Below are positions 39,472 to 48,488 of a stretch of DNA of 64,000 nt, piece after piece. Each line of letters opens with the position of its first letter. Positions within the stretch are counted from its first letter, which is position 1. A model generated the notes under the pieces. The model made no database searches. It was not told where the DNA came from and saw only the letters and a list, made by a program, of their open reading frames with translations. The stretch lies in IMG/VR virus record IMGVR_UViG_3300027804_002812, positions 96,001 to 160,000 of that record. The stretch is one strand, 5' to 3'. Both the position numbers and the translations under genes were made by a program. The stretch comes from a virus (taxonomy: Duplodnaviria; Caudoviricetes).

Positions 39472-40584
39472 CTATTTTTTTTCTTTGGTTATAGTTGGCA
39501 TTTTGATAATCAAACGTCTGTTTGGGGCAGTTTTATTTACGTCTTTGACTTCAGGGTACTTCATCCCTTTTGCAAATTGGTCAGTTTGTCCAATACCTTT
39601 AGGGATGAAGTTCAATGTAGATATACCTGTTTCAGTTTTCAACCTATTAGCGATTGTACTTGCTCTATTATCAGATAGTTTTTGATTATAGTCTCTTTTC
39701 TGATTTTCATCACCATCAATCGACGCTGATGCAATAACTTCAACATTACCACTTACTCCTTGGTAGTTTGATTTAACTTTCTCGACAAATTTTTTGAATT
39801 CAATTTCAGCATCGGGGGTCAAAGTTGTTTTATCAAATTCAAATGGGCTTTGAATGTCCAATTTAATTTCCTCAAACTCTGGTCTTGTTGATGGTGGAGT
39901 TTCAGGTTTTATTGGTTCCACTTTGTCCCCAGCAAACGCGTATCCTATTCCTAAAACATGTTTTGGGGTATAACTTTTAGCGTATTGTATGACAACACCT
40001 TTCCTATTTTTAAGTTCTTTAAGTATCGGTTTAGACTCCGATCCGTAAGTACCATTCCAAGTCAAAATACTATAAACTGGTGTAGGTTCATCAAAATATC
40101 GTCCTAAATCATCAATAAATACAAACCAACTACCACCCACACCTTTGAAAATCTTTGTGGGGTCATATTGTGCTGGTGTAACTCTATTACAAGGACCCGC
40201 AATTGGACCATTATATTTTTCCTCTGTATCATCAATATATCCAGCAGCGTATTTCATATATAGACCGTATTTCATACCTGTCATCACATCCTCTGGAAAG
40301 TATAACCCTTGTCCCTTTGTGGGATCTATTGTTGCGGTAATTTGACTGGCGAGAGGTAATTTACGTAATTCTCCTTTATTAGTTTGAATGTAATAATCCG
40401 CTCCTTTTTTTATGATTGTGTAACTACATAATCTCCAAGTGTCTTCTCCACTTTCTTGAGCATGCATAAGGTCGGGATCGCCATATTGTTCAGACATTAA
40501 ATAAAAATTCTTTGTTGCTGATTCGTGAAGAGATAAAATTCTATTTCTTTCTTCGTTAGATATTTCCCAAGTTTGCTTAATCAT
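39472..40584 (-). CDS. OmpA-like peptidoglycan-binding domain protein (no signal peptide)
   Basis: FEFDKTTL...VEVIASASIDG...YNQKLSDNRA..IANRL...KGIGQ...NRRLII. Start reassigned to ATG 40584 because the longer start overlaps the MCP terminator and TATTTATA lies 14 nt upstream. Confidence 0.8.
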   Translation of the reverse strand: MIKQTWEISNEERNRILSLHESATKNFYLMSEQYGDPDLMHAQESGEDTWRLCSYTIIKKGADYYIQTNKGELRKLPLASQITATIDPTKGQGLYFPEDVMTGMKYGLYMKYAAGYIDDTEEKYNGPIAGPCNRVTPAQYDPTKIFKGVGGSWFVFIDDLGRYFDEPTPVYSILTWNGTYGSESKPILKELKNRKGVVIQYAKSYTPKHVLGIGYAFAGDKVEPIKPETPPSTRPEFEEIKLDIQSPFEFDKTTLTPDAEIEFKKFVEKVKSNYQGVSGNVEVIASASIDGDENQKRDYNQKLSDNRASTIANRLKTETGISTLNFIPKGIGQTDQFAKGMKYPEVKDVNKTAPNRRLIIKMPTITKEKK

Positions 40585-40598
40585 AATATACAATTTAT

Positions 40599-40606
40599 TA
40601 TAAATA
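40599..40606 (-). promoter_or_regulatory. TATTTATA motif
   Basis: 14 nt upstream of ATG 40584, just after the MCP terminator. Confidence 0.6.
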
Positions 40607-40613
40607 TCAGGAT

Positions 40614-40645
40614 AAAAAAAAAGGGACAATTTCTTGTCCCTTTTT
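40614..40645 (-). terminator. intrinsic terminator after major capsid gene
   Basis: AAAAAGGGACAA-tttc-TTGTCCCTTTTT. Confidence 0.85.
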
Positions 40646-40663
40646 ACCATATCGAAATTTCGA

Positions 40664-42454
40664 TTATCTCAATTCTCTCAAGTCGAATGTTCTAACTCCA
40701 TCAACTGTGATTCTACCGTAGAATCTGTTATTAACCATTTTCTTAGCGTATCTAGTCATGATACCTTTGATTGGTGTAAAGTTGAATGGATTGTACATTG
40801 TAGGAGTTAATTGTAGAGGTACATACGGTGCGTAGATGTAACCTGTGTCCAATAGAGAAGTTCCTTTGTGACCCATCAATACTTGGTTTGGTGGGAAGTA
40901 AGGGTCTCTATACACTTGGTAACGACCTGCTAATGTACCAACTCTTTCAATACCCATGTTGTACTGGTCCTGCTCAGGAGCCGCGTTTGATACGTGGAAG
41001 TATTCCAAGTCATCAAAGATAGCACTGATTTCAGAAGAAACAACGATCCAGTTAGCTCCACCTCTTAATGTAGATTTGTGGATTTGTGCTGAAATTTGGT
41101 TGATTGCAGTGATAAGAGTTTGGTTCCAATCTTTCTGAGTATAAGGAACTGCACTAGATCCTAATCTCTTCCATCCATTGTAATCCCATCTTAAGTTCCA
41201 AGCTGCTCCTTTTCTAAGGTCTCTCAAGATTTCTCTATCAATTTCAGCCGCAACTTGCTCAGATAACAATGCAGTTAATTCAGCTTCAGCGTCGATGTTG
41301 TGGAATGCCGCAACGTCCTGAGCCATTTCTGGAGACCACTGAGCTCTTAATTTTCTTTCAGTTACAGAAACTGTTACTGACATAAGGTCGAATGAAACTT
41401 CACCAATCTTATCTTCGAATTCCAAGTTCTTATAGATTCTATAAGTAGCTGTGAATGCGTTGTCTGCTGCAGTTGTTGAAGAGAATGTTGAACCTGTGTA
41501 ACCGTCTAATGAACCACCACAAGTAACACATACTGGTACTTGTAAATCAACTTCCAAGTAGATTTTACCTTCAGCGTCACATAAGTTGTCATACTGACCA
41601 CCATCTGTCTTACTGTTAGGGAATACCAACGTAGCGTTGTTGTTACCATACTGTACAATTCCTTTACCATATCTCTGAGTTACAACTCTGAATAAGTAAG
41701 GGTTTGAAGTGTTAGCAGAAGTGTAAACGTTTCCTGCTGCACCATAAACTGTCAAATCAGATAAGAATGCTTCGTTATCCATTGGTTGACCATCAGGACC
41801 GATTAATTTACCTGCTCCGTCAGATGCGAAACCTGACATAACTACTAATACTTTTCTGTAATCAGAAAGAGTATACGCTGAAGGAACCAATTGGTCGGCT
41901 AACCATGCAACAGTTCCAACTTGTGCTGTGATAGCAGAATATTGTCCTTTAGAGTAATCGAACAACCCAGGAGGATCCAAAGCTGGTTCGTTACCTTCGT
42001 AGAATCTATCGTAAAGATCCTTAGTGTTATTATAGTCATAACCACTGTTTGGAGTTTGACCAGCCGCAGCGTTTGGAGAACCATAAGGTGCGTAGTGCTC
42101 AGAAGTACCTGGTTGGTAAGACTGAATGTTAGGTACGAAGTAGAATAATTTACCGATAGGTAAGTTCATAGCTTGTACAGAAACGATATCGTTTGCTAAT
42201 AATTTAGAGAAAACTCTTCTTACGATAGGGAAAACAACTGTTTCAAATGCACCTGTGTCAGATGTAGATGATGCTTCGTTAATTAAGTGAGAAGCTTGGT
42301 TTTCATAAAGTTGAGCTACGTTCTCTCTCATGTGACCTTTAAGACCCTCAAGGAATCCTAATTTGTCCCATTTGTTGATTGTGTCTTCTTTAATAACTTT
42401 AAGGTGCTTAAGACCAATGTTACCAACAAGACCTGATTCTAATAATGCTCCCAT
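40664..42454 (-). CDS. gp23: T4-like major capsid protein
   Basis: VSVQAMNLPIGKLFY, RKLRAQWSPEMAQDVAAFHNIDAEAELTALLSEQVAAEIDREIL, YAPYVPL, GIMTRYA. Confidence 0.97.
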   Translation of the reverse strand: MGALLESGLVGNIGLKHLKVIKEDTINKWDKLGFLEGLKGHMRENVAQLYENQASHLINEASSTSDTGAFETVVFPIVRRVFSKLLANDIVSVQAMNLPIGKLFYFVPNIQSYQPGTSEHYAPYGSPNAAAGQTPNSGYDYNNTKDLYDRFYEGNEPALDPPGLFDYSKGQYSAITAQVGTVAWLADQLVPSAYTLSDYRKVLVVMSGFASDGAGKLIGPDGQPMDNEAFLSDLTVYGAAGNVYTSANTSNPYLFRVVTQRYGKGIVQYGNNNATLVFPNSKTDGGQYDNLCDAEGKIYLEVDLQVPVCVTCGGSLDGYTGSTFSSTTAADNAFTATYRIYKNLEFEDKIGEVSFDLMSVTVSVTERKLRAQWSPEMAQDVAAFHNIDAEAELTALLSEQVAAEIDREILRDLRKGAAWNLRWDYNGWKRLGSSAVPYTQKDWNQTLITAINQISAQIHKSTLRGGANWIVVSSEISAIFDDLEYFHVSNAAPEQDQYNMGIERVGTLAGRYQVYRDPYFPPNQVLMGHKGTSLLDTGYIYAPYVPLQLTPTMYNPFNFTPIKGIMTRYAKKMVNNRFYGRITVDGVRTFDLRELR

Positions 42455-42500: not shown

Positions 42501-44072
42501 TTACCCAATTTTACTCATCAAATCTTTCATTCTTAAGAATTGAGGATTCTCATAAGTTTTTGATTCAATTAGGGTAGTTGATGAACCTGTAGAAACACTC
42601 TTGTTTAATTTAGTTTCCACTGATTCGTTAATTGGTGTACTTTCAGTTTTAGACAATTCGTCTTTAATCGACTTATAAAGATTTTTAGATTCTTTCAAAG
42701 TATCTACATTATCAAATCTTCTAAGAATGTTAATTTTTTCTTTTTTAGTAGTCGAATGTTCAGTGAATAATCTTGTAGCATATGCCAAGTTTGAATTGAA
42801 GATAGCAACCTCATTAAGTTTTTCTCTGAAAACATTTAATGCTTTTCTGTATTCTTCATTTTTCTCTCTTAACGTTGCAACTTCTGATTCTGAGGATTCA
42901 ACTTTTACTCCGTTTTTACCATAAACATAATTTCTGTTGTTAGTAATACCTTTTCTAAGTCCTCTTCCTTCTTTTGAACCCATTCCATAAGTTCTAGCAG
43001 CTTCTTTGGTTTCTCTTTTTTCAAAACCTGCGTCATCTCTACGAGCCTTAGTAGTTTTAAGATCTTTTGAAGCAATTTTGCCATGTTTCATTGCCAATCT
43101 TTCATCCTCTTTGTCTTTGTATCCTTGACCTTCTTTTGTTTCTGCCTTAACAACTTTGGATTTTTGTTCCATATTTTCGCCTTTCTTGTATTCGAATTTA
43201 GCCTTTCCTGTTCCCATTGTCTTAGGACCTTCTTTTTTGTCCTCTTTGAACCCACCTGCAGCTTTATCTTTGTAAGTGAATTTAGGTCCAGAACCAATTC
43301 CAACACCTTTAGGTTTTACTGTCGATTTTGCCTCTCTAACAGCTCTTCTATGGTTGTAAGATTCGTCCAAATCTTCTTCTTCGTCTTCATCTTCGTCTTC
43401 TTCCATCATGTCTTCATCTCCTTCCATCATGTCTTCATCTTCTTCCATCATGTCTTCATCTCCTTCCATCATGTCGTCTTCCGAATCAAACTCGATTTCG
43501 TACATAACTTCTTCGTCTTGGTCCATGTCGATATCTTCAACATCTCCGTCTTTTGAGAAAATAGCATTGATTACATCTTCTGTATCAACATCCATTTCAT
43601 CGATTTCATCTACGTTCATAGTTTCATCTAATTCTTCCTCTTCCTCGGACTCACCAAGCTTAACTAAATATTCTGAATCAGTGTCAGCATCGGTTAAGTG
43701 AATGTCTTCACCGTCTTTTTTAACGATAATACCATCTTCTTCACCCATAGCTTTGAACACCTTAAGAATTTCTTCGTCTGAAGCGTCAGTTAAATCTATT
43801 GGACTTTCTTCTGAATCCATATCCATGTCCATATCAAATTCCATGTCCATTTCCATATCATCATCATTATCAACAGGCATATCGGTATCGATATCTGTAT
43901 CTAATTCAATCTCATCTTCCATGTCTTGTTCTGACAGAGATTCTTTTACTAATTGGTTGATTTCTTCCTTCATAGTTGAAGCAAGTATTCCTTTTGCGTT
44001 TTGGGCGATTGCTTCTTCAACATTTCTCATTTGAATCAACGCCTCCTGTACTAAGTTTTTATTTTCTTGCAT
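42501..44072 (-). CDS. gp22: prohead core scaffolding protein
   Basis: Highly acidic, between protease and MCP. C-terminal LNEVAIFNSNLAYATRLF...KINILRRFD..TLKE.K.LY. Confidence 0.8.
   Translation of the reverse strand: MQENKNLVQEALIQMRNVEEAIAQNAKGILASTMKEEINQLVKESLSEQDMEDEIELDTDIDTDMPVDNDDDMEMDMEFDMDMDMDSEESPIDLTDASDEEILKVFKAMGEEDGIIVKKDGEDIHLTDADTDSEYLVKLGESEEEEELDETMNVDEIDEMDVDTEDVINAIFSKDGDVEDIDMDQDEEVMYEIEFDSEDDMMEGDEDMMEEDEDMMEGDEDMMEEDEDEDEEEDLDESYNHRRAVREAKSTVKPKGVGIGSGPKFTYKDKAAGGFKEDKKEGPKTMGTGKAKFEYKKGENMEQKSKVVKAETKEGQGYKDKEDERLAMKHGKIASKDLKTTKARRDDAGFEKRETKEAARTYGMGSKEGRGLRKGITNNRNYVYGKNGVKVESSESEVATLREKNEEYRKALNVFREKLNEVAIFNSNLAYATRLFTEHSTTKKEKINILRRFDNVDTLKESKNLYKSIKDELSKTESTPINESVETKLNKSVSTGSSTTLIESKTYENPQFLRMKDLMSKIG
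43400..43475 (-). repeat. 21-bp tandem repeat (~3.6 copies) encoding EDMMEG/ED in scaffold
   Basis: CTTCCATCATGTCTTCATCT(C/T) repeated. Confidence 0.9.
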
Positions 44073-44096: not shown

Positions 44097-44104
44097 TATA
44101 AATA
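44097..44104 (-). promoter_or_regulatory. TATTTATA motif
   Basis: 24 nt upstream of the scaffold ATG 44072. Confidence 0.6.
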
Positions 44105-44409: not shown

Positions 44410-45126
44410 TTATTTTCCTAAAAAATCGTCTAATTTTCTCATTAAGTCAACCGACTTTCCAACATAGTCGTTATTTTGTTTAGATTTTATTTCTTCTTCT
44501 AAGTTTTCTTCGTACTTACTTCTATCGTCGGGATTAGAAAATAAATATGCTCCTGGTGTTGATGGAGAAGATACCAAGTCAAAACATATCAGTTCAAAAT
44601 CATCTTGTACTTCATTTCTTTCTCCAACTTTTTTTAATGAACCGACACCTCTTGATGAAATACCTAAGGTCACTCCTTGTCTCATTAAGTTAGCCGCTTG
44701 GTCTCCTTTAGTTGAAACAATACCTCTTTCATGAAACCCTGGAGATGTCAATAATTTGAGTTTTCCCATTAGTATATTTTTATCCCACCATATGTCTGTG
44801 ATGATGTGAGATACTCTGTCTAAGTCTATTAATGATGACTCAGGGTGGTTTAATTCTGATGTGGATAATCCCTTAGAAATTGCTTGCTTATATCTTTCAG
44901 ATTCTCTTTTCAAAATCCTTTCAGGATACGTTCTACCATTTCTATTTGGTGTGTCGTATTTTTGAAGAACCGCATAAAACTCAAATGGATTTCTATAATC
45001 TAAATTGGCGGCCTCTTTCAGAACATCAATATTATGGGTATCTTTTGGAGAAACCCAACCTGCATCCATTTCAATCAATATACCATGGCCAAGTTCGCTT
45101 GCCTCTAAAATTCTTAAATTTTTCAT
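44410..45126 (-). CDS. gp21: T4-like prohead core protease
   Basis: NRNGRTYP, ELNHP, RVSHII, GISSRGVGS, DFELICFDLVSSPSTPGAY. Confidence 0.93.
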   Translation of the reverse strand: MKNLRILEASELGHGILIEMDAGWVSPKDTHNIDVLKEAANLDYRNPFEFYAVLQKYDTPNRNGRTYPERILKRESERYKQAISKGLSTSELNHPESSLIDLDRVSHIITDIWWDKNILMGKLKLLTSPGFHERGIVSTKGDQAANLMRQGVTLGISSRGVGSLKKVGERNEVQDDFELICFDLVSSPSTPGAYLFSNPDDRSKYEENLEEEIKSKQNNDYVGKSVDLMRKLDDFLGK

Positions 45127-45165: not shown

Positions 45166-45603
45166 TTAGTTTTCGTCTTTTTTAGAAATTGAAAATTCAA
45201 AATATTTGTTTTGAACTACGTTATTTTTGTAGATGGATTTGACTATAGTTTTTATTGATTCTTTTAGTTCATCACACTTGAAATCCATATCACGTAGGGT
45301 ATATAGATTGATTTCCAAATTAAAAAATGATTTTTTCCCTTTAGATATTCCACTTGTCCGAAGGTCCAAATCAACAATATTTTTTTCTTGAAAAATTTTG
45401 CAATCTATTGATTCATAAACGGAATTTTTTATTTCTCGTCCCAAACCTGAGACAACTCGGTTCCAATTATCTAACTCTTCTTTTGGTGTGACCCACGATT
45501 GGATGTTTATGTAAACTGATTTTAAGTTTTTGGAATCTACTGTCCCATACTGTGACTTTATAGGATTGAACAGGTTAAGTTTGACACTTTTTCCTTTTTT
45601 CAT
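45166..45603 (-). CDS. hypothetical phage protein
   Basis: 145-aa ORF in the head module. Confidence 0.8.
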   Translation of the reverse strand: MKKGKSVKLNLFNPIKSQYGTVDSKNLKSVYINIQSWVTPKEELDNWNRVVSGLGREIKNSVYESIDCKIFQEKNIVDLDLRTSGISKGKKSFFNLEINLYTLRDMDFKCDELKESIKTIVKSIYKNNVVQNKYFEFSISKKDEN

Positions 45604-45635: not shown

Positions 45636-45664
45636 ATAATATACATAATATGTATGATTGTCAA
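45636..45664 (-). promoter_or_regulatory. sigma70-consensus-like promoter (TTGACA-17-TATTAT) with palindromic spacer
   Basis: The minus strand reads TTGACA atcatacatattatgta TATTAT. The spacer region holds ATACATA-A-TATGTAT (45641-45655). Confidence 0.4.
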
Positions 45665-45674
45665 AATTTTTTTA

Positions 45675-45682
45675 TATTTATA
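45675..45682 (+). promoter_or_regulatory. TATTTATA motif
   Basis: 14 nt upstream of the bS21 ATG. Confidence 0.6.
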
Positions 45683-45696
45683 GATATTTCTAATAT

Positions 45697-45888
45697 ATGA
45701 TAATAATAAAAATCACCCAGGGTAATCCTCTTGAGAAAGCTCTCAAGACCCTAAAGTCAAAAGTAATTAAAACAAAACAAAATCAGATTTTATTTGATAG
45801 AAAGCAATATACAAAAAAATCTGTACTTAGAAGAGCACAGATTCTGAAGGCAAAACATATTCAAAGTCTCAAAGACCAATCAAATTGA
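45697..45888 (+). CDS. rpsU: 30S ribosomal protein bS21
   Basis: MIIIKITQGNPLEKALKTLKSKVIKTKQ..L..RK.YTKKSVLRRAQILKA..IQ aligns gap-free with Bacteroidota bS21. Its position inside the head module matches known bS21 phages. Confidence 0.9.
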   Translation: MIIIKITQGNPLEKALKTLKSKVIKTKQNQILFDRKQYTKKSVLRRAQILKAKHIQSLKDQSN

Positions 45889-46578
45889 TTCTTCCAAATT
45901 TTTTAACTTCAAAAAGTTTAATTGGTCGAATTTCTCAGATTTAATTTTGTTAATCGTTTCTGAAATTTTTGTTTTCATGTCCTGAGAATCTTCGTTGTTT
46001 TGAATCTCGGTTAGTTTGGATATCGTACTTTCTCTTAATGTTTCAAATTTAGTTTCCAAAGTTTTAGTGTCTTCAGAAACTATTTGAAAAAATTCTTTTT
46101 TAGAATTTTCATCTAAATTAAGTATATAGTTATTGACGGTTTGGTTTGCCACCGCAACCATAGAACTAATTGGGATATTTATACTTTCCTTAATAGATTC
46201 TTTTGTAGAAGTAATAACTTTCAAAATATTTTTCTTTGCTTTAACTCTTTCGAGTAAATCCACTCCTTGTGTGTAAACTAAGGTATCAATATCGGAATAA
46301 CTGTTTTCAGTTTTTTCGGAAAGTGTGATTGGAAGTTTAATACTTGGCAAAACTTTGTTTAATAGATTAATCCCTTCTTCAATAAAATATTTTGCATCCT
46401 GTTCACTTAACCCTTGGGGTGAACTCAGTTGATCATATATCGCATATGCTTTAGACATAGCTTTATTATTCAAAACGTTGTGTTTGAATTCTCGTAAAGT
46501 CTTCTTGAATTCTATTTCATTTTTGTAGGATTCCAAGAGATTTTTTTCAATTAGGGATTTTACTGTTCCGAAGGTCAT
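45880..46578 (-). CDS. hypothetical protein (possible prohead core component)
   Basis: 232-aa helical ORF between portal and protease. Confidence 0.7.
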   Translation of the reverse strand: MTFGTVKSLIEKNLLESYKNEIEFKKTLREFKHNVLNNKAMSKAYAIYDQLSSPQGLSEQDAKYFIEEGINLLNKVLPSIKLPITLSEKTENSYSDIDTLVYTQGVDLLERVKAKKNILKVITSTKESIKESINIPISSMVAVANQTVNNYILNLDENSKKEFFQIVSEDTKTLETKFETLRESTISKLTEIQNNEDSQDMKTKISETINKIKSEKFDQLNFLKLKNLEESI

Positions 46579-46599: not shown

Positions 46600-48453
46600 T
46601 TATGAATTTAATAACTTATTCAACTCTTTTGAAATTTCTACCAAAGAATCTTGTGCCTGACCCAAATTTATTATCTGTGACCCTTCGATTAAATTATTTT
46701 CTACTAAAATGTTAAGGTCTTTTTTTGTTGATTCAGGTGTTACTTCTGCGGGTGGAGCTTCTTCTGCTCCTCCTCCTGCCGGTGGAGTTTCCGTTCCTAA
46801 ATCGAGACCCGACGGTTCTGACCCGAATGATGGTGGTGACGCCAATTCTTCTCCTCCATCCATAGTTGTTTCCGCCCCAGCAGTTGGAGTTGAACCTGTT
46901 TGACTACCATACAATTTGTCGATATTATCAAACAAACCTGTTTTGGTTATCACAGTTGGAGTTGCTTTAAGTTCTTCTCCAACCGCTCTTTCGATTCTTT
47001 GTTGTTGTAGGTCTAAACGAACTTCATCATCAGACCAACCAAATATGTGTTTCTTAGCCCATGTAGATGAAGTTGCCTGTATTCCATTTCCTGGATCGGC
47101 AACCAAATCCTTGTATAATAATACCTTTTCTTTCCAAACATCAATCTTCAGCAAATCTGCTTGAGTTGATGGGTTTGTTAATCCAAGTGTAAAATTGGAT
47201 AATTCATCTTCGAATCCTAATAAAAATAAATGTACAATGGCAATTTTATTAAGTTCTGCCAACATACTTTTTTGGATTCTATTAATTGTACGAGCAAATC
47301 TAATGTCTTGTAACGCCAAGTTTTTACCATCGCCTACCACTTCTTCAAAACCCAAGAATGCTTTTGGTACTCGTAGAGCAGTTAACAATTTCTTCTGAAT
47401 GTATTCAATGTCGGCAATTTCAGATAAGTTAGTTGCACCTGGCAAAGTATCGATAGGTGTTGGTGCTGCAGGATCTCTTACAGGTATGAAATAATCTTGG
47501 TCAACCGCCATTTGATTGAATCTCATGTCGACATTACCTGTTTTACTATCAACAACTTGCTCTCTTTTGAATTTGTTTGCAACACGTTGTACATATGCTT
47601 CGACATCATCGTCGTTCATGTTACCCACAAAAACTTTGAATATTCTTCTCTCAGGTGCTCTCGAAGTTCTATATATTAACATAGCATCTTCACAAAGGAG
47701 TAATTGTTTCCAAATACGTCTTGCTTTTTCCAACATTGATGTTCCATAAGGAAGTTTTCTATCATCACCCAATAATCTGAAGTGAGCCATCTCCCAAGAT
47801 TGAAACTCCATGTTTTTATTTTTCCATGTAAAGTGTAATGCTTTTCTGTCTTTATCAACTTCATTTTTAACATCAACAGATATTTTACCACTGGCACCAA
47901 CTTCATGTCTTTCAATTTCTATGGTTGGTAATTGTTGACATCCAACAATTCCTTTCTCAGGGTCTAATTTAAGATACACGAAATTGTCTCCATATTTACA
48001 GGTATTCCGTGTCCACATTGGAAGATTGGTATTAACATCTAAAGCATTGTTAAACAAATCGGCTAATACCCCCTTTATTCTTTTTGATTCAGAATAAATT
48101 TGTAATATGAATCCATCTTCATTTGTTGTAGTGGATTCTTCAGCATAAATGTCTAATGCCGCAGAAATCTCAGGAGTGTATTCCATTGATTCATAATCAT
48201 ATTGGGCAGATAATCTTGTTGGTTCATAATAAATTGCTTGAGAATAAAGATTATTCTCAACTTTAGCCCATTGATTGGTAAGATAATATGTTTGTTGTGC
48301 TTGGAGTTTTTCTTTCTCGTATTCCTCTCTACTTTTGGTTCGCAGGAGTTCCTTTTTATCAAACTTGAATGTTGGATAATCTTGATTGAGAAGTGAATTC
48401 GGTCCAAATGTTTGTGACAATCTTTGCCAAACTGTCATATTTTGTTCTGCCAT
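46600..48453 (-). CDS. gp20: T4-like portal protein
   Basis: PEISAALDIYAEE, KARRIWKQL.LCEDAMLIYR..RAPERRIF.V.VGN, DYFIPVR..., IDTLPG. Confidence 0.96.
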   Translation of the reverse strand: MAEQNMTVWQRLSQTFGPNSLLNQDYPTFKFDKKELLRTKSREEYEKEKLQAQQTYYLTNQWAKVENNLYSQAIYYEPTRLSAQYDYESMEYTPEISAALDIYAEESTTTNEDGFILQIYSESKRIKGVLADLFNNALDVNTNLPMWTRNTCKYGDNFVYLKLDPEKGIVGCQQLPTIEIERHEVGASGKISVDVKNEVDKDRKALHFTWKNKNMEFQSWEMAHFRLLGDDRKLPYGTSMLEKARRIWKQLLLCEDAMLIYRTSRAPERRIFKVFVGNMNDDDVEAYVQRVANKFKREQVVDSKTGNVDMRFNQMAVDQDYFIPVRDPAAPTPIDTLPGATNLSEIADIEYIQKKLLTALRVPKAFLGFEEVVGDGKNLALQDIRFARTINRIQKSMLAELNKIAIVHLFLLGFEDELSNFTLGLTNPSTQADLLKIDVWKEKVLLYKDLVADPGNGIQATSSTWAKKHIFGWSDDEVRLDLQQQRIERAVGEELKATPTVITKTGLFDNIDKLYGSQTGSTPTAGAETTMDGGEELASPPSFGSEPSGLDLGTETPPAGGGAEEAPPAEVTPESTKKDLNILVENNLIEGSQIINLGQAQDSLVEISKELNKLLNS

Positions 48454-48480: not shown

Positions 48481-48488
48481 TATAAATA
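48481..48488 (-). promoter_or_regulatory. TATTTATA motif
   Basis: 27 nt upstream of the portal ATG. Confidence 0.55.

What the first reader, a model, noticed from the sequence alone, without database searches (positions are those of the whole stretch)
45697..45888. Phage bS21 with His at position 54 and no Shine-Dalgarno: possible unlocking of the host anti-SD
Seen: bS21 lies antisense within the head module, has a TATTTATA motif and no SD upstream, and reads KAKH54IQ. Established: bS21-encoding freshwater phages with late expression are known. In Flavobacterium ribosomes, bS21 (including Tyr54 in KAAY54IQ, from my recall of the sequence), bS18 and bS6 sequester the anti-SD, and host rpsU is autoregulated through a strong SD. 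Inference: the phage variant escapes autoregulation and may remodel the anti-SD pocket, changing initiation selectivity late in infection.
Basis: partly seen in the sequence, partly recalled or inferred. Interest (0 to 1): 0.7.

Follow-up and report, generated by a model that had tools for sequence, protein, structure and literature searches.

The report
Known phage bS21; His54 is ordinary
This 326-kb freshwater phage carries its own copy of ribosomal protein bS21, as already published for its phage group, and the histidine at position 54 is a common variant that alternates with tyrosine, so it gives no sign of a new way to reprogram host ribosomes.

Summary
Window 45697..45888 (+) is a 63-aa bS21 gene, antisense inside a T4-like head module. 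TATTTATA ends 14 nt before the ATG, there is no SD, and the protein reads KAKH54IQ against KAAY54IQ in F. johnsoniae bS21 (PDB 7JIL).

It is already published. Chen et al. 2022 (PMC9723584) describe this phage group, the reverse-strand placement, the late expression and the Tyr/His/Phe variation at residue 54, which they read as conservative.

My tests agree with that reading:
- His and Tyr are each in 59 of 119 close homologues.
- They swap at least five times on a 58-locus tree.
- His54 is the only bS21 in 7 of 247 sampled cellular Bacteroidia.
- SD-like sequences in the phage are below background, so a freed anti-SD would have nothing to read.

Escape from SD-based autoregulation is plausible: 76 of 80 Flavobacteriaceae rpsU genes carry an SD of at least 6 nt. 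It only applies if the host is of that type.

TATTTATA is the phage's main late-type promoter box. Before bS21 it occurs only in this genome; relatives mostly have the host-type TATATTTG. The scan had noted this motif before in other bS21 phages.

One new detail: codons 37-49 encode, on the opposite strand, a conserved terminator-like hairpin behind the upstream late gene.

The parts
45697..45888 (+). Phage rpsU: 63-aa ribosomal protein bS21
   Evidence: ORF. Pfam PF01165 30.6 bits against cut-off 27. Gapless alignment to F. johnsoniae bS21 7JIL_z, E 2.4e-8. 778 homologues.
45856..45858 (+). Codon 54, CAT = His. It is the position of Tyr54, which stacks on A1534 in the F. johnsoniae 30S subunit.
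   Evidence: PMC7797042. Relatives carry CAT/CAC or TAT/TAC.
45675..45682 (+). TATTTATA, the phage's own late-type promoter box, ending 14 nt before the bS21 ATG. It overlaps a degenerate host-type -7 box, TATATTTA, at 45673..45680.
   Evidence: Top-enriched 8-mer upstream of genes: 42 of 172 upstream regions, 15-fold. 44 copies lie 3-38 nt before a start codon. Before bS21 it occurs only here and in L002; relatives read TATTTGTG, TATTTGTA, TATTTGGA and similar.
45659..45673 (.). TGTCAAAATTTTTTT, the most conserved block of the divergent intergenic region. On the - strand it holds TTGACA of a sigma-70-like TTGACA-N17-TATTAT site (45664..45636).
   Evidence: Conserved in all 27 upstream haplotypes of the relatives. 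The - strand site matches 11 of 12 positions. Function not tested.
45806..45845 (-). Terminator-like element on the antisense strand of bS21 codons 37-49. It is a 12-pair hairpin (45845..45816) followed by a T-rich tail, starting 35 nt after the stop of the - strand 232-aa gene.
   Evidence: Found by the scan. Free energy -13.2 kcal/mol against a mean of -4.4 (sd 2.35) for synonymous-codon shuffles; 0.5% are as low. Kept in 27 of 29 haplotypes of relatives and shortened in two. Third-position changes in codons 39-49 average 0.82 against 3.7 elsewhere, p = 2.5e-4, and the one freely varying third position (codon 44) lies in the loop. None of 80 cellular rpsU genes is as stable there.
45880..46578 (-). 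232-aa hypothetical head-module gene, convergent with bS21 and overlapping its last 9 nt. It may be the 'bS21_CN' neighbour of Chen et al.
   Evidence: No Pfam or PHROG match. PMC9723584 section 13. The identification with bS21_CN is an inference.
45166..45603 (-). 145-aa hypothetical head-module gene, divergent from bS21
   Evidence: No Pfam or PHROG match.
46600..48453 (-). T4 gp20-type portal protein. Its TATTTATA box lies at 48481..48488 on the - strand.
   Evidence: PF07230 E 4e-77. The box is strictly conserved in relatives.
44410..45126 (-). Prohead core serine protease (gp21 type)
   Evidence: PF03420 E 4.6e-22 and phrog_207 E 1e-41.
42501..44072 (-). Acidic 523-aa scaffold-like protein. 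Its TATTTATA box lies at 44097..44104 on the - strand. The gp23-type capsid gene 40664..42454 follows it.

Best explanation
This is an ordinary member of the published freshwater, Bacteroidota-infecting 'bS21 phages' (Chen et al. 2022).

The 63-aa protein is a working bS21 homologue of the Bacteroidia type. Its conserved C-terminal helix, with an aromatic residue at 54 and Ile55, is built to bind the 30S platform and keep the 3' tail of 16S rRNA tucked away. Ribosomes carrying it should therefore stay blind to SD sequences, like host ribosomes. Any bias towards phage messages would come from the diverged N-terminal helix, not from residue 54.

His54 is a tolerated alternative to Tyr54 (CAT versus TAT, one transition). 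It has arisen and reverted repeatedly in this phage clade and in cellular Bacteroidia.

The gene has no SD because nothing in this phage does. As a side effect its translation is independent of the SD/anti-SD loop that throttles host rpsU in Flavobacteriales. A phage protein that keeps the anti-SD sequestered would also hold host rpsU repressed.

In this genome a single G-to-A difference from its relatives gives bS21 the phage's late-type TATTTATA box, with a leader of about 10 nt.

The opposite strand of codons 37-49 probably carries the intrinsic terminator of the converging portal/232-aa late transcript.

Shown here: gene identity, context, residue statistics, motif statistics, and the conserved hairpin with suppressed synonymous change. 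Inferred, not shown: incorporation into ribosomes, retained anti-SD sequestration, promoter use and terminator function.
For: Identity and context:
- establish the gene and its head-module setting.
- The group, the strand arrangement and the Tyr/His/Phe variation at residue 54 are already described in PMC9723584.

His/Tyr variation in the phages:
- His and Tyr are each in 59 of 119 close homologues, plus one Cys.
- In IMG/VR loci the counts are 34 His and 41 Tyr.
- At least 5 changes are forced on a 2.2-kb tree of 58 loci, and the outer clades are all Tyr.
- The count is again 5 on a tree built from the flanks only. That rate is similar to other variable sites (6-8 changes), but residue 54 is the only freely varying site in helix 39-56 and it is confined to His or Tyr.

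His54 in cells:
- 2 of 80 Flavobacteriaceae loci carry it, in a normal rpsU-xerC context and as the only bS21 in the genome.
- Bergeyella porcorum carries it.
- 7 of 401 Bacteroidia genomes match the His54 pattern against 240 for Tyr54. The 7 fall into at least four sequence types.

SD usage:
- 4.6% of 373 crude phage genes have an SD core against 9.1% background.
- SD-like matches are below background at every length.
- 76 of 80 Flavobacteriaceae rpsU genes have an SD of at least 6 nt.
- The phage has no bS18 or bS6, so only one of the three pocket proteins is replaced.

Promoter box.

Hairpin.
Against: - No experiment shows that any phage bS21 of this group enters Bacteroidia ribosomes.
- No Y54H mutant has been measured. 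Y54A gives about 3-fold de-repression of SD reporters (PMC9976891), so the position matters and a partial effect of His cannot be excluded.
- His54 is rare in cells (about 3%) but frequent in this phage clade (about 50%). That difference could reflect selection rather than drift.
- Recombination, rather than repeated mutation, could produce part of the His/Tyr pattern.
- The host is unknown, so the autoregulation argument may not apply to it.
- The gene calls used for the SD and motif statistics are a crude longest-ORF set.
- The RNA data available to me gave neither strand nor transcript ends.
Confidence: 0.75

Rival explanations
1. One reading: His54 stacks less well on A1534 than Tyr, or only in one protonation state. 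Ribosomes carrying the phage protein would then partly free the anti-SD and change which mRNAs initiate late in infection.
For: - Residue 54 matters: Y54A raises SD-reporter output about 3-fold in vivo and in vitro (PMC9976891).
- His54 is enriched in this phage clade (about 50%) relative to cellular Bacteroidia (7 of 247).
- No Y54H measurement exists in the papers read.
Against: - Very close relatives differ only by His or Tyr at residue 54, and the state flips at least 5 times at the rate of other freely varying sites.
- His54 serves as the sole housekeeping bS21 in several cellular lineages.
- Phage genes are depleted of SD-like sequences, and late leaders are only 3-18 nt long, so a freed anti-SD has no phage target.
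- Freeing the anti-SD would boost host rpsU translation.
- Ile55 and the rest of the helix are kept.
Confidence: 0.08
2. The His/Tyr alternation is adaptive host matching: each variant fits the 16S tail or bS18/bS6 pocket of a different host lineage. On this view the variation is neither neutral nor an unlocking device.
For: - The variation is confined to two residues at an RNA-contacting position, inside an otherwise invariant helix.
- Cellular lineages also differ in His or Tyr.
- Chen et al. predict several Bacteroidetes classes as hosts.
Against: - The rate of change is no higher than at unconstrained sites.
- No host assignments are available to test for an association.
- A1534 and the anti-SD are near-universal in sequence (established knowledge), so it is unclear what would need matching.
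Confidence: 0.12
3. The protein does not act in host ribosomes at all. It could be packaged in the virion, or have a role outside the ribosome. In that case much of the reported 'late expression' would be antisense read-out of the converging late transcript.
For: - Chen et al. raise virion packaging as a possibility.
- Their RNA mapping was not strand-resolved, and they report bS21 as 'transcribed together' with an opposite-strand neighbour.
- If the antisense terminator works, the - strand transcript would cover about 43% of bS21.
Against: - The protein keeps the full bS21 fold signature and the Bacteroidia-specific C-terminal helix under purifying selection.
- A pelagiphage bS21 enters E. 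coli ribosomes (cited in PMC9976891).
- In this genome the gene has its own late-type promoter box at the usual spacing.
Confidence: 0.05

Closest known systems
bS21 of the freshwater Bacteroidetes 'bS21 phages' (Chen et al. 2022, ISME Commun 2:31, PMC9723584)
   Same: - Genome size class: 326 kb here, up to 331 kb there.
- bS21 sits on the reverse strand between portal and prohead protease in a T4-like head module.
- The protein is 63 aa.
- Residue 54 is aromatic, with His as a reported variant.
- Freshwater origin of the relatives and of the RNA libraries.
   Different: Nothing essential differs. Details not in that paper, by my searches of its main text:
- His54 is about as frequent as Tyr in this subclade and flips repeatedly.
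- The late-type TATTTATA box before bS21 is found only in this genome.
- There is an antisense terminator-like hairpin inside the ORF.
I could not establish whether this exact genome is one of their 47.
Flavobacterium johnsoniae bS21 (rpsU; PDB 7JIL chain z; Jha et al. 2021, McNutt et al. 2023)
   Same: - The best match among solved structures, with a gapless alignment over residues 1-61.
- The same C-terminal signature, K51-A52-x-aromatic54-I55-Q56, which contacts A1534 and the 16S 3' tail.
   Different: - His replaces Tyr at 54.
- K41 replaces P41.
- The N-terminal helix has diverged: KSKVIKTKQNQ in the phage against KRKFDKTGTVR in the host.
- The phage gene has no SD, whereas host rpsU has an extended SD used for autoregulation (PMC9976891).
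- The gene is phage-borne, with a phage promoter box.
Pelagibacter phage HTVC008M bS21 and other viral bS21 genes (Mizuno et al. 2019, as cited in PMC9976891)
   Same: A T4-like myovirus that encodes bS21, the ribosomal protein most commonly found in viruses. Incorporation into ribosomes was shown in E. coli for that protein.
   Different: - The host phylum differs (Alphaproteobacteria), and the Bacteroidia-type helix with an aromatic residue at 54 is not expected there.
- It was not among the tblastn hits of this protein in the phage collection. Only four uncultured huge phages matched, at 44-50% identity.
T4 late promoters (TATAAATA, read by gp55 with gp33 and the clamp)
   Same: A single conserved 8-bp A/T box precedes the virion genes, with no -35 element and very short leaders.
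   Different: - The box reads TATTTATA on the sense strand, which is the reverse complement of the T4 box.
- The factor that reads it is unknown.
- No gp55-like gene was looked for here.

Membership tests
Ribosomal protein bS21 (Pfam PF01165 / TIGR00030) | Profile match above the curated cut-off | tested here: met
   PF01165 scores 30.6 bits against a cut-off of 27. TIGR00030 scores 25.7 against 28.95, just below its cut-off. The whole-genome scan gives 29.5 bits, over the cut-off.
Ribosomal protein bS21 (Pfam PF01165 / TIGR00030) | Full-length, gapless similarity to a bS21 seen in a ribosome structure | tested here: met
   7JIL_z (F. johnsoniae), residues 1-61 to 1-61, E 2.4e-8. 9i5v_9, residues 1-59, E 1.4e-4.
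Ribosomal protein bS21 (Pfam PF01165 / TIGR00030) | Physical presence in 30S subunits | not testable with these tools
   This needs ribosome purification from infected cells, or heterologous expression.
Bacteroidia-type bS21 (anti-SD-sequestering) | Signature aromatic residue at position 54 followed by Ile/Val55, in a C-terminus less basic than in other phyla (Jha et al. 2021) | tested here: met
   The phage reads K51-A52-K53-H54-I55-Q56. His54 is also found in cellular Bacteroidia: 7 genomes against 240 with Tyr in one sample, and 2 of 80 Flavobacteriaceae loci. Tyr itself is absent here.
Bacteroidia-type bS21 (anti-SD-sequestering) | Actual sequestration of the 16S 3' tail, that is, SD-blind ribosomes | not testable with these tools
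   This needs reporter assays or cryo-EM. No Y54H data appear in the papers read.
Bacteroidia-type bS21 (anti-SD-sequestering) | Extended SD upstream of rpsU (the autoregulatory loop of Flavobacteriales) | tested here: not met
   The phage gene has no match of 4 nt or more in the last 20 nt. 76 of 80 Flavobacteriaceae rpsU genes have at least 6 nt. This is a feature of the host gene's regulation, not of the protein family, and most other Bacteroidia lack it.
'bS21 phages' of Chen et al. 2022 | bS21 on the strand opposite to flanking TerL, portal, protease and MCP genes in a large freshwater phage genome | tested here: met
   The same context is seen in 58 or more IMG/VR relatives.
'bS21 phages' of Chen et al. 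2022 | Bacteroidota host | tested here: inconclusive
   Indirect evidence only. The closest solved and cellular bS21 proteins are from Flavobacteriia. The start regions are SD-less and A-rich. The portal's nearest cultured relatives include Flavobacterium and Rhodothermus phages, but also a Microcystis phage. No CRISPR or host test was run.
Late genes of this phage (TATTTATA promoter class) | Sense-strand TATTTATA 3-38 nt before the start codon, conserved in relatives | tested here: inconclusive
   The motif is present at 14 nt in this genome. It is not conserved before bS21 in relatives (1 of 27 haplotypes), unlike before the portal and scaffold genes.

The most novel reading that the evidence does not exclude
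His54 may be functionally different from Tyr54. As a weaker or protonation-dependent stacker on A1534, it would make anti-SD sequestration leaky or tunable in ribosomes carrying the phage protein. The repeated His/Tyr flips in this phage clade would then reflect selection on how tightly the host's anti-SD is locked.
Probability: 0.07. Interest if true: 0.65.

Novelty: already known. Interest (0 to 1): 0.25.

Why it matters
Phage-encoded bS21 is the leading example of a virus supplying a part of the ribosome itself. Bacteroidia ribosomes are a special case because bS21 helps hide the anti-SD.

If His54 opened that lock, a phage would be switching the host's mode of start-site selection. The evidence here points the other way: His and Tyr look interchangeable, and the phage has no SD sequences to exploit.

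What remains useful:
- a clear, cheap experiment (Y54H in F. johnsoniae);
- a caution that published 'late expression' of bS21 was not strand-resolved, while a converging late transcript probably ends inside the gene;
- the observation that the gene's promoter class seems to differ between close relatives.

Tried and rejected
- my first His54 DNA pattern was mistyped (119 letters instead of 120; checked), so its zero result is void. It was repeated correctly.
- a 48-sequence alignment was too diverse for the search for related loci. It was replaced by a 6-sequence alignment.
- RNA evidence: only assembled contigs of freshwater metatranscriptomes were on offer. One 438-nt contig spans 45516..45953. 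It gives neither strand, ends nor level, so it says nothing about the promoter or the terminator.
- Possible link between cellular His54 and lack of an SD on rpsU: all 7 His54 genomes lack an SD, but so do most Tyr54 Bacteroidia outside Flavobacteriales. Rejected.
- Idea that codon 54 is a hot spot of change: its 5 changes are within the range of other variable sites. Rejected.
- Host-type TAnnTTTG boxes are only weakly enriched upstream of genes in this genome: 19 sense against 13 control. I therefore cannot say that the relatives' TATATTTG is a working promoter.
- PHROGs has no family matching this bS21.
- There are no tRNA genes in the window.
- Structure and complex prediction were not used. 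The question concerns a protein-rRNA contact, which those tools cannot model.

Full report
**What is there**

Window 45697..45888 (+) is a 63-codon ORF. It matches Pfam Ribosomal_S21 above the curated cut-off (30.6 against 27 bits). NCBIfam TIGR00030 falls just short (25.7 against 28.95).

Its best match among solved structures is chain z of 7JIL, the F. johnsoniae 70S ribosome. The alignment is gapless over residues 1-61.

The window lies in a 326,291-bp IMG/VR virus record that CheckV rates as complete. All neighbours are on the - strand and form a T4-like head module:
- portal, 46600..48453;
- a 232-aa ORF, 45880..46578, which overlaps the end of bS21 by 9 nt;
- a 145-aa ORF, 45166..45603;
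- prohead protease, 44410..45126;
- a 523-aa acidic scaffold-like protein, 42501..44072;
- gp23-type capsid protein, 40664..42454.

The phage has no bS18 or bS6 gene.

**Already published**

Chen et al. 2022 (PMC9723584) describe 47 genomes of closely related freshwater phages of up to 331 kb. In them bS21 sits on the reverse strand among TerL, portal, protease and MCP genes. The predicted hosts are Bacteroidetes, and bS21 is reported as transcribed together with the structural genes.

They also state that 54 of 61 phage bS21 proteins have Tyr54 and 7 have another aromatic residue (His, once Phe). They read this as keeping the stacking on A1534. McNutt et al. 2023 (PMC9976891) showed that Y54A raises strong-SD reporters about 3-fold. 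They speculated about phage bS21 replacing the host protein, but did not test Y54H. Two 2026 papers from the same field mention neither phages nor residue 54.

The core of the finding is therefore known. What could still be tested was the reading that His54 unlocks the anti-SD.

**Residue 54 in the phages**

- Among the 119 closest full-length homologues in the 5.8-billion-protein collection, 59 have His, 59 have Tyr and one has Cys.
- In 75 scorable IMG/VR loci the counts are 41 Tyr and 34 His. The codons are CAT/CAC and TAT/TAC, so a single transition separates the two states. Some proteins differ only at position 54.
- On a maximum-likelihood tree of 2.2 kb around the gene (58 loci), the two outer clades are all Tyr. 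An inner clade of 42 loci starts with His, and Tyr reappears several times. Well-supported branches force at least 5 changes.
- On a tree built from the flanks alone the count is again 5. That is no more than at other freely varying positions (6-8 changes at residues 7, 12, 35, 57, 58 and 61) or at synonymous sites (up to 10).
- Residue 54 is nevertheless the only position that varies freely inside the conserved helix 39-56, and it varies only between His and Tyr.

This is the pattern of two interchangeable residues under a shared constraint. Recombination could contribute to it.

**Residue 54 in cells**

- Among 134 cluster representatives (50% identity) related to the phage protein, 102 have Tyr, 5 others have His and about 3 have a reliably aligned Phe. 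One His cluster is the annotated bS21 of Bergeyella porcorum, on a 2.2-Mb chromosome.
- Of 80 named Flavobacteriaceae-type rpsU loci, 78 have Tyr and 2 have His. Both His loci are marine single-cell genomes. In each the gene sits between a Na:alanine symporter and a XerC-like recombinase and is the only bS21 match in the genome.
- A strict DNA pattern for the bS21 frame was run on one evenly drawn sample of 401 Bacteroidia genomes. It matched 7 genomes with His at codon 54 and 240 with Tyr, so His accounts for 2.8%.
- Off line, the two patterns recovered 2 of 2 His and 78 of 78 Tyr among the 80 loci.
- The 240 include two genomes flagged as unpublished (G183, G097). Without them the count is 238. 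No other claim rests on them.
- The 7 His proteins fall into at least four sequence types, and one is a close relative of Tyr-bearing proteins.

His54 is thus uncommon in cells, but it recurs and is sufficient as the sole bS21.

**SD sequences**

A crude set of 373 longest-ORF genes covers 94% of the genome. Only 4.6% have GGAG, GAGG or AGGA at -20..-4, against 9.1% at random positions. G is depleted upstream of starts, and A is enriched at -13..-11 and at -3. Matches to the anti-SD complement are below background at every length.

The missing SD before bS21 is therefore the rule in this phage, not a special feature of this gene. It does contrast with host rpsU in Flavobacteriaceae, where 76 of 80 loci have an SD of at least 6 nt. 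Most other Bacteroidia rpsU genes sampled lack an SD whether residue 54 is Tyr or His.

It follows, by inference, that translation of the phage gene cannot be throttled by the anti-SD loop. A freed anti-SD would find no phage message to bind and would instead boost host rpsU. A phage bS21 that keeps the tail sequestered would hold host rpsU off. This logic favours retention of sequestration.

**The TATTTATA motif**

It is the most enriched 8-mer in sense-oriented upstream regions, present in 42 of 172 regions (15-fold). Of 97 copies in the genome, 55 are intergenic, although only 6% of the genome is intergenic. 44 copies lie 3-38 nt before a start codon, in two clusters at 3-5 nt and 10-18 nt. 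With the last base free (TATTTATN), 90 genes have it.

It precedes the portal, the scaffold-like protein and a collagen-like tail fibre. Before the portal and scaffold genes it is strictly conserved in the relatives. It is therefore very probably the late promoter box of this phage group. Earlier notes of this scan say the same for other bS21 phages.

Before bS21, however, the box occurs only in this genome and its twin contig, which is 1 of 27 upstream haplotypes. Relatives read TATTTGTG, TATTTGTA, TATTTGGA, TACTTGTG or unrelated sequence, and many then have TATATTTG, the host-type -7 box TAnnTTTG. Here a G-to-A difference breaks that box and creates the late box.

What is conserved upstream of bS21 in all clades is TGTCAAAATTTTTTT and AGATATTT. 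On the - strand the first of these forms a TTGACA-N17-TATTAT site. Which promoter drives bS21 remains open.

**An overlapping element inside the gene**

The terminator scan found a 12-pair hairpin followed by a T-rich tail on the - strand at 45845..45816. It begins 35 nt after the stop codon of the converging 232-aa gene and lies on the antisense strand of bS21 codons 37-49.
- Its free energy is -13.2 kcal/mol. 2000 synonymous recodings using the phage's own codon usage average -4.4 (sd 2.35), and only 0.5% are as low. The sense-strand version is weaker (-8.1), because two G-U pairs become C-A mismatches.
- It is kept in 27 of the 29 haplotypes of the relatives, including the most distant clades, and is shortened in two. 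One change turns a G-U pair into G-C.
- Third-codon-position changes on the tree average 0.82 in codons 39-49 against 3.7 elsewhere (Mann-Whitney p = 2.5e-4). The one third position there that varies freely (codon 44, 4 changes) lies in the loop.
- None of 80 cellular rpsU genes is as stable over the same codons (mean -6.4, minimum -12.6).

I read this as the intrinsic terminator of the portal/232-aa late transcript, at about 55% confidence. It matters for the literature. Chen et al. mapped RNA reads without regard to strand and noted that bS21 and an opposite-strand neighbour appear 'transcribed together'. A - strand transcript ending at this hairpin would cover about 43% of bS21.

**Verdict**

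The gene, its context and the His54 variant are already described. The proposed unlocking of the anti-SD is not supported, and several independent lines make it unlikely, although no Y54H measurement exists. Escape from SD-based autoregulation is a fair inference for hosts whose rpsU has an SD. The lineage-specific late box and the embedded antisense terminator-like hairpin are small new details.

Noticed in passing
window 45806-45845 (- strand): Conserved hairpin plus T-run on the antisense strand of bS21 codons 37-49. Synonymous change is suppressed across it. It is probably the terminator of the converging portal/232-aa late transcript, embedded in a coding sequence on the other strand.
   Followed up: yes
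whole genome G000; in the window at 914, 3942, 6421, 31419, 35633, 44097, 45675, 48481, 55352, 56682, 57607, 60257 and 62349: TATTTATA (more loosely TATTTATN, before about 90 genes) is the dominant promoter-like box. In about 30 genes it ends only 3-6 nt before the ATG, which implies leaderless or nearly leaderless late mRNAs. In about 45 genes it ends 10-19 nt before the ATG.
   Followed up: partly
window 45636-45664 (- strand): A near-perfect sigma-70-type TTGACA-N17-TATTAT site sits in the divergent intergenic region, facing the 145-aa gene. The TTGAC(A/T) and TATT(A/T/C)T parts are kept in distant relatives. This is odd for a phage of Bacteroidota, whose main sigma factor reads TTTG / TAnnTTTG.
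   Followed up: partly
window 45673-45682 versus L003-L081 upstream regions: A single G-to-A difference turns the relatives' host-type -7 box TATATTTG into the phage late box TATTTATA. This is a possible switch of promoter class for bS21 in this lineage only.
   Followed up: partly
window 42501-44072 (-): A 523-aa, extremely acidic, repeat-rich protein (runs of D/E/M) lies just upstream of the capsid gene and is probably the scaffold. In four freshwater metatranscriptome assemblies its region has by far the highest summed contig depth of the 6 kb laid. The low-complexity repeats may attract other organisms' contigs.
   Followed up: no
window 39472-40650 (-): A 392-aa protein with a C-terminal OmpA-family (peptidoglycan-binding type) domain lies directly downstream of the major capsid gene.
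   Followed up: no
L116, L132, L162-L168 (cellular Bacteroidia): Cellular lineages whose only bS21 has His54 include marine Flavobacteriia single-cell genomes, Bergeyella-like genomes and others. They offer natural test cases for whether His54 ribosomes are still SD-blind.
   Followed up: partly
phage records LR745206, LR756501-LR756503: The only matches to this bS21 in the GenBank phage collection are four unannotated uncultured huge phages of 635-735 kb, at 44-50% identity.
   Followed up: no
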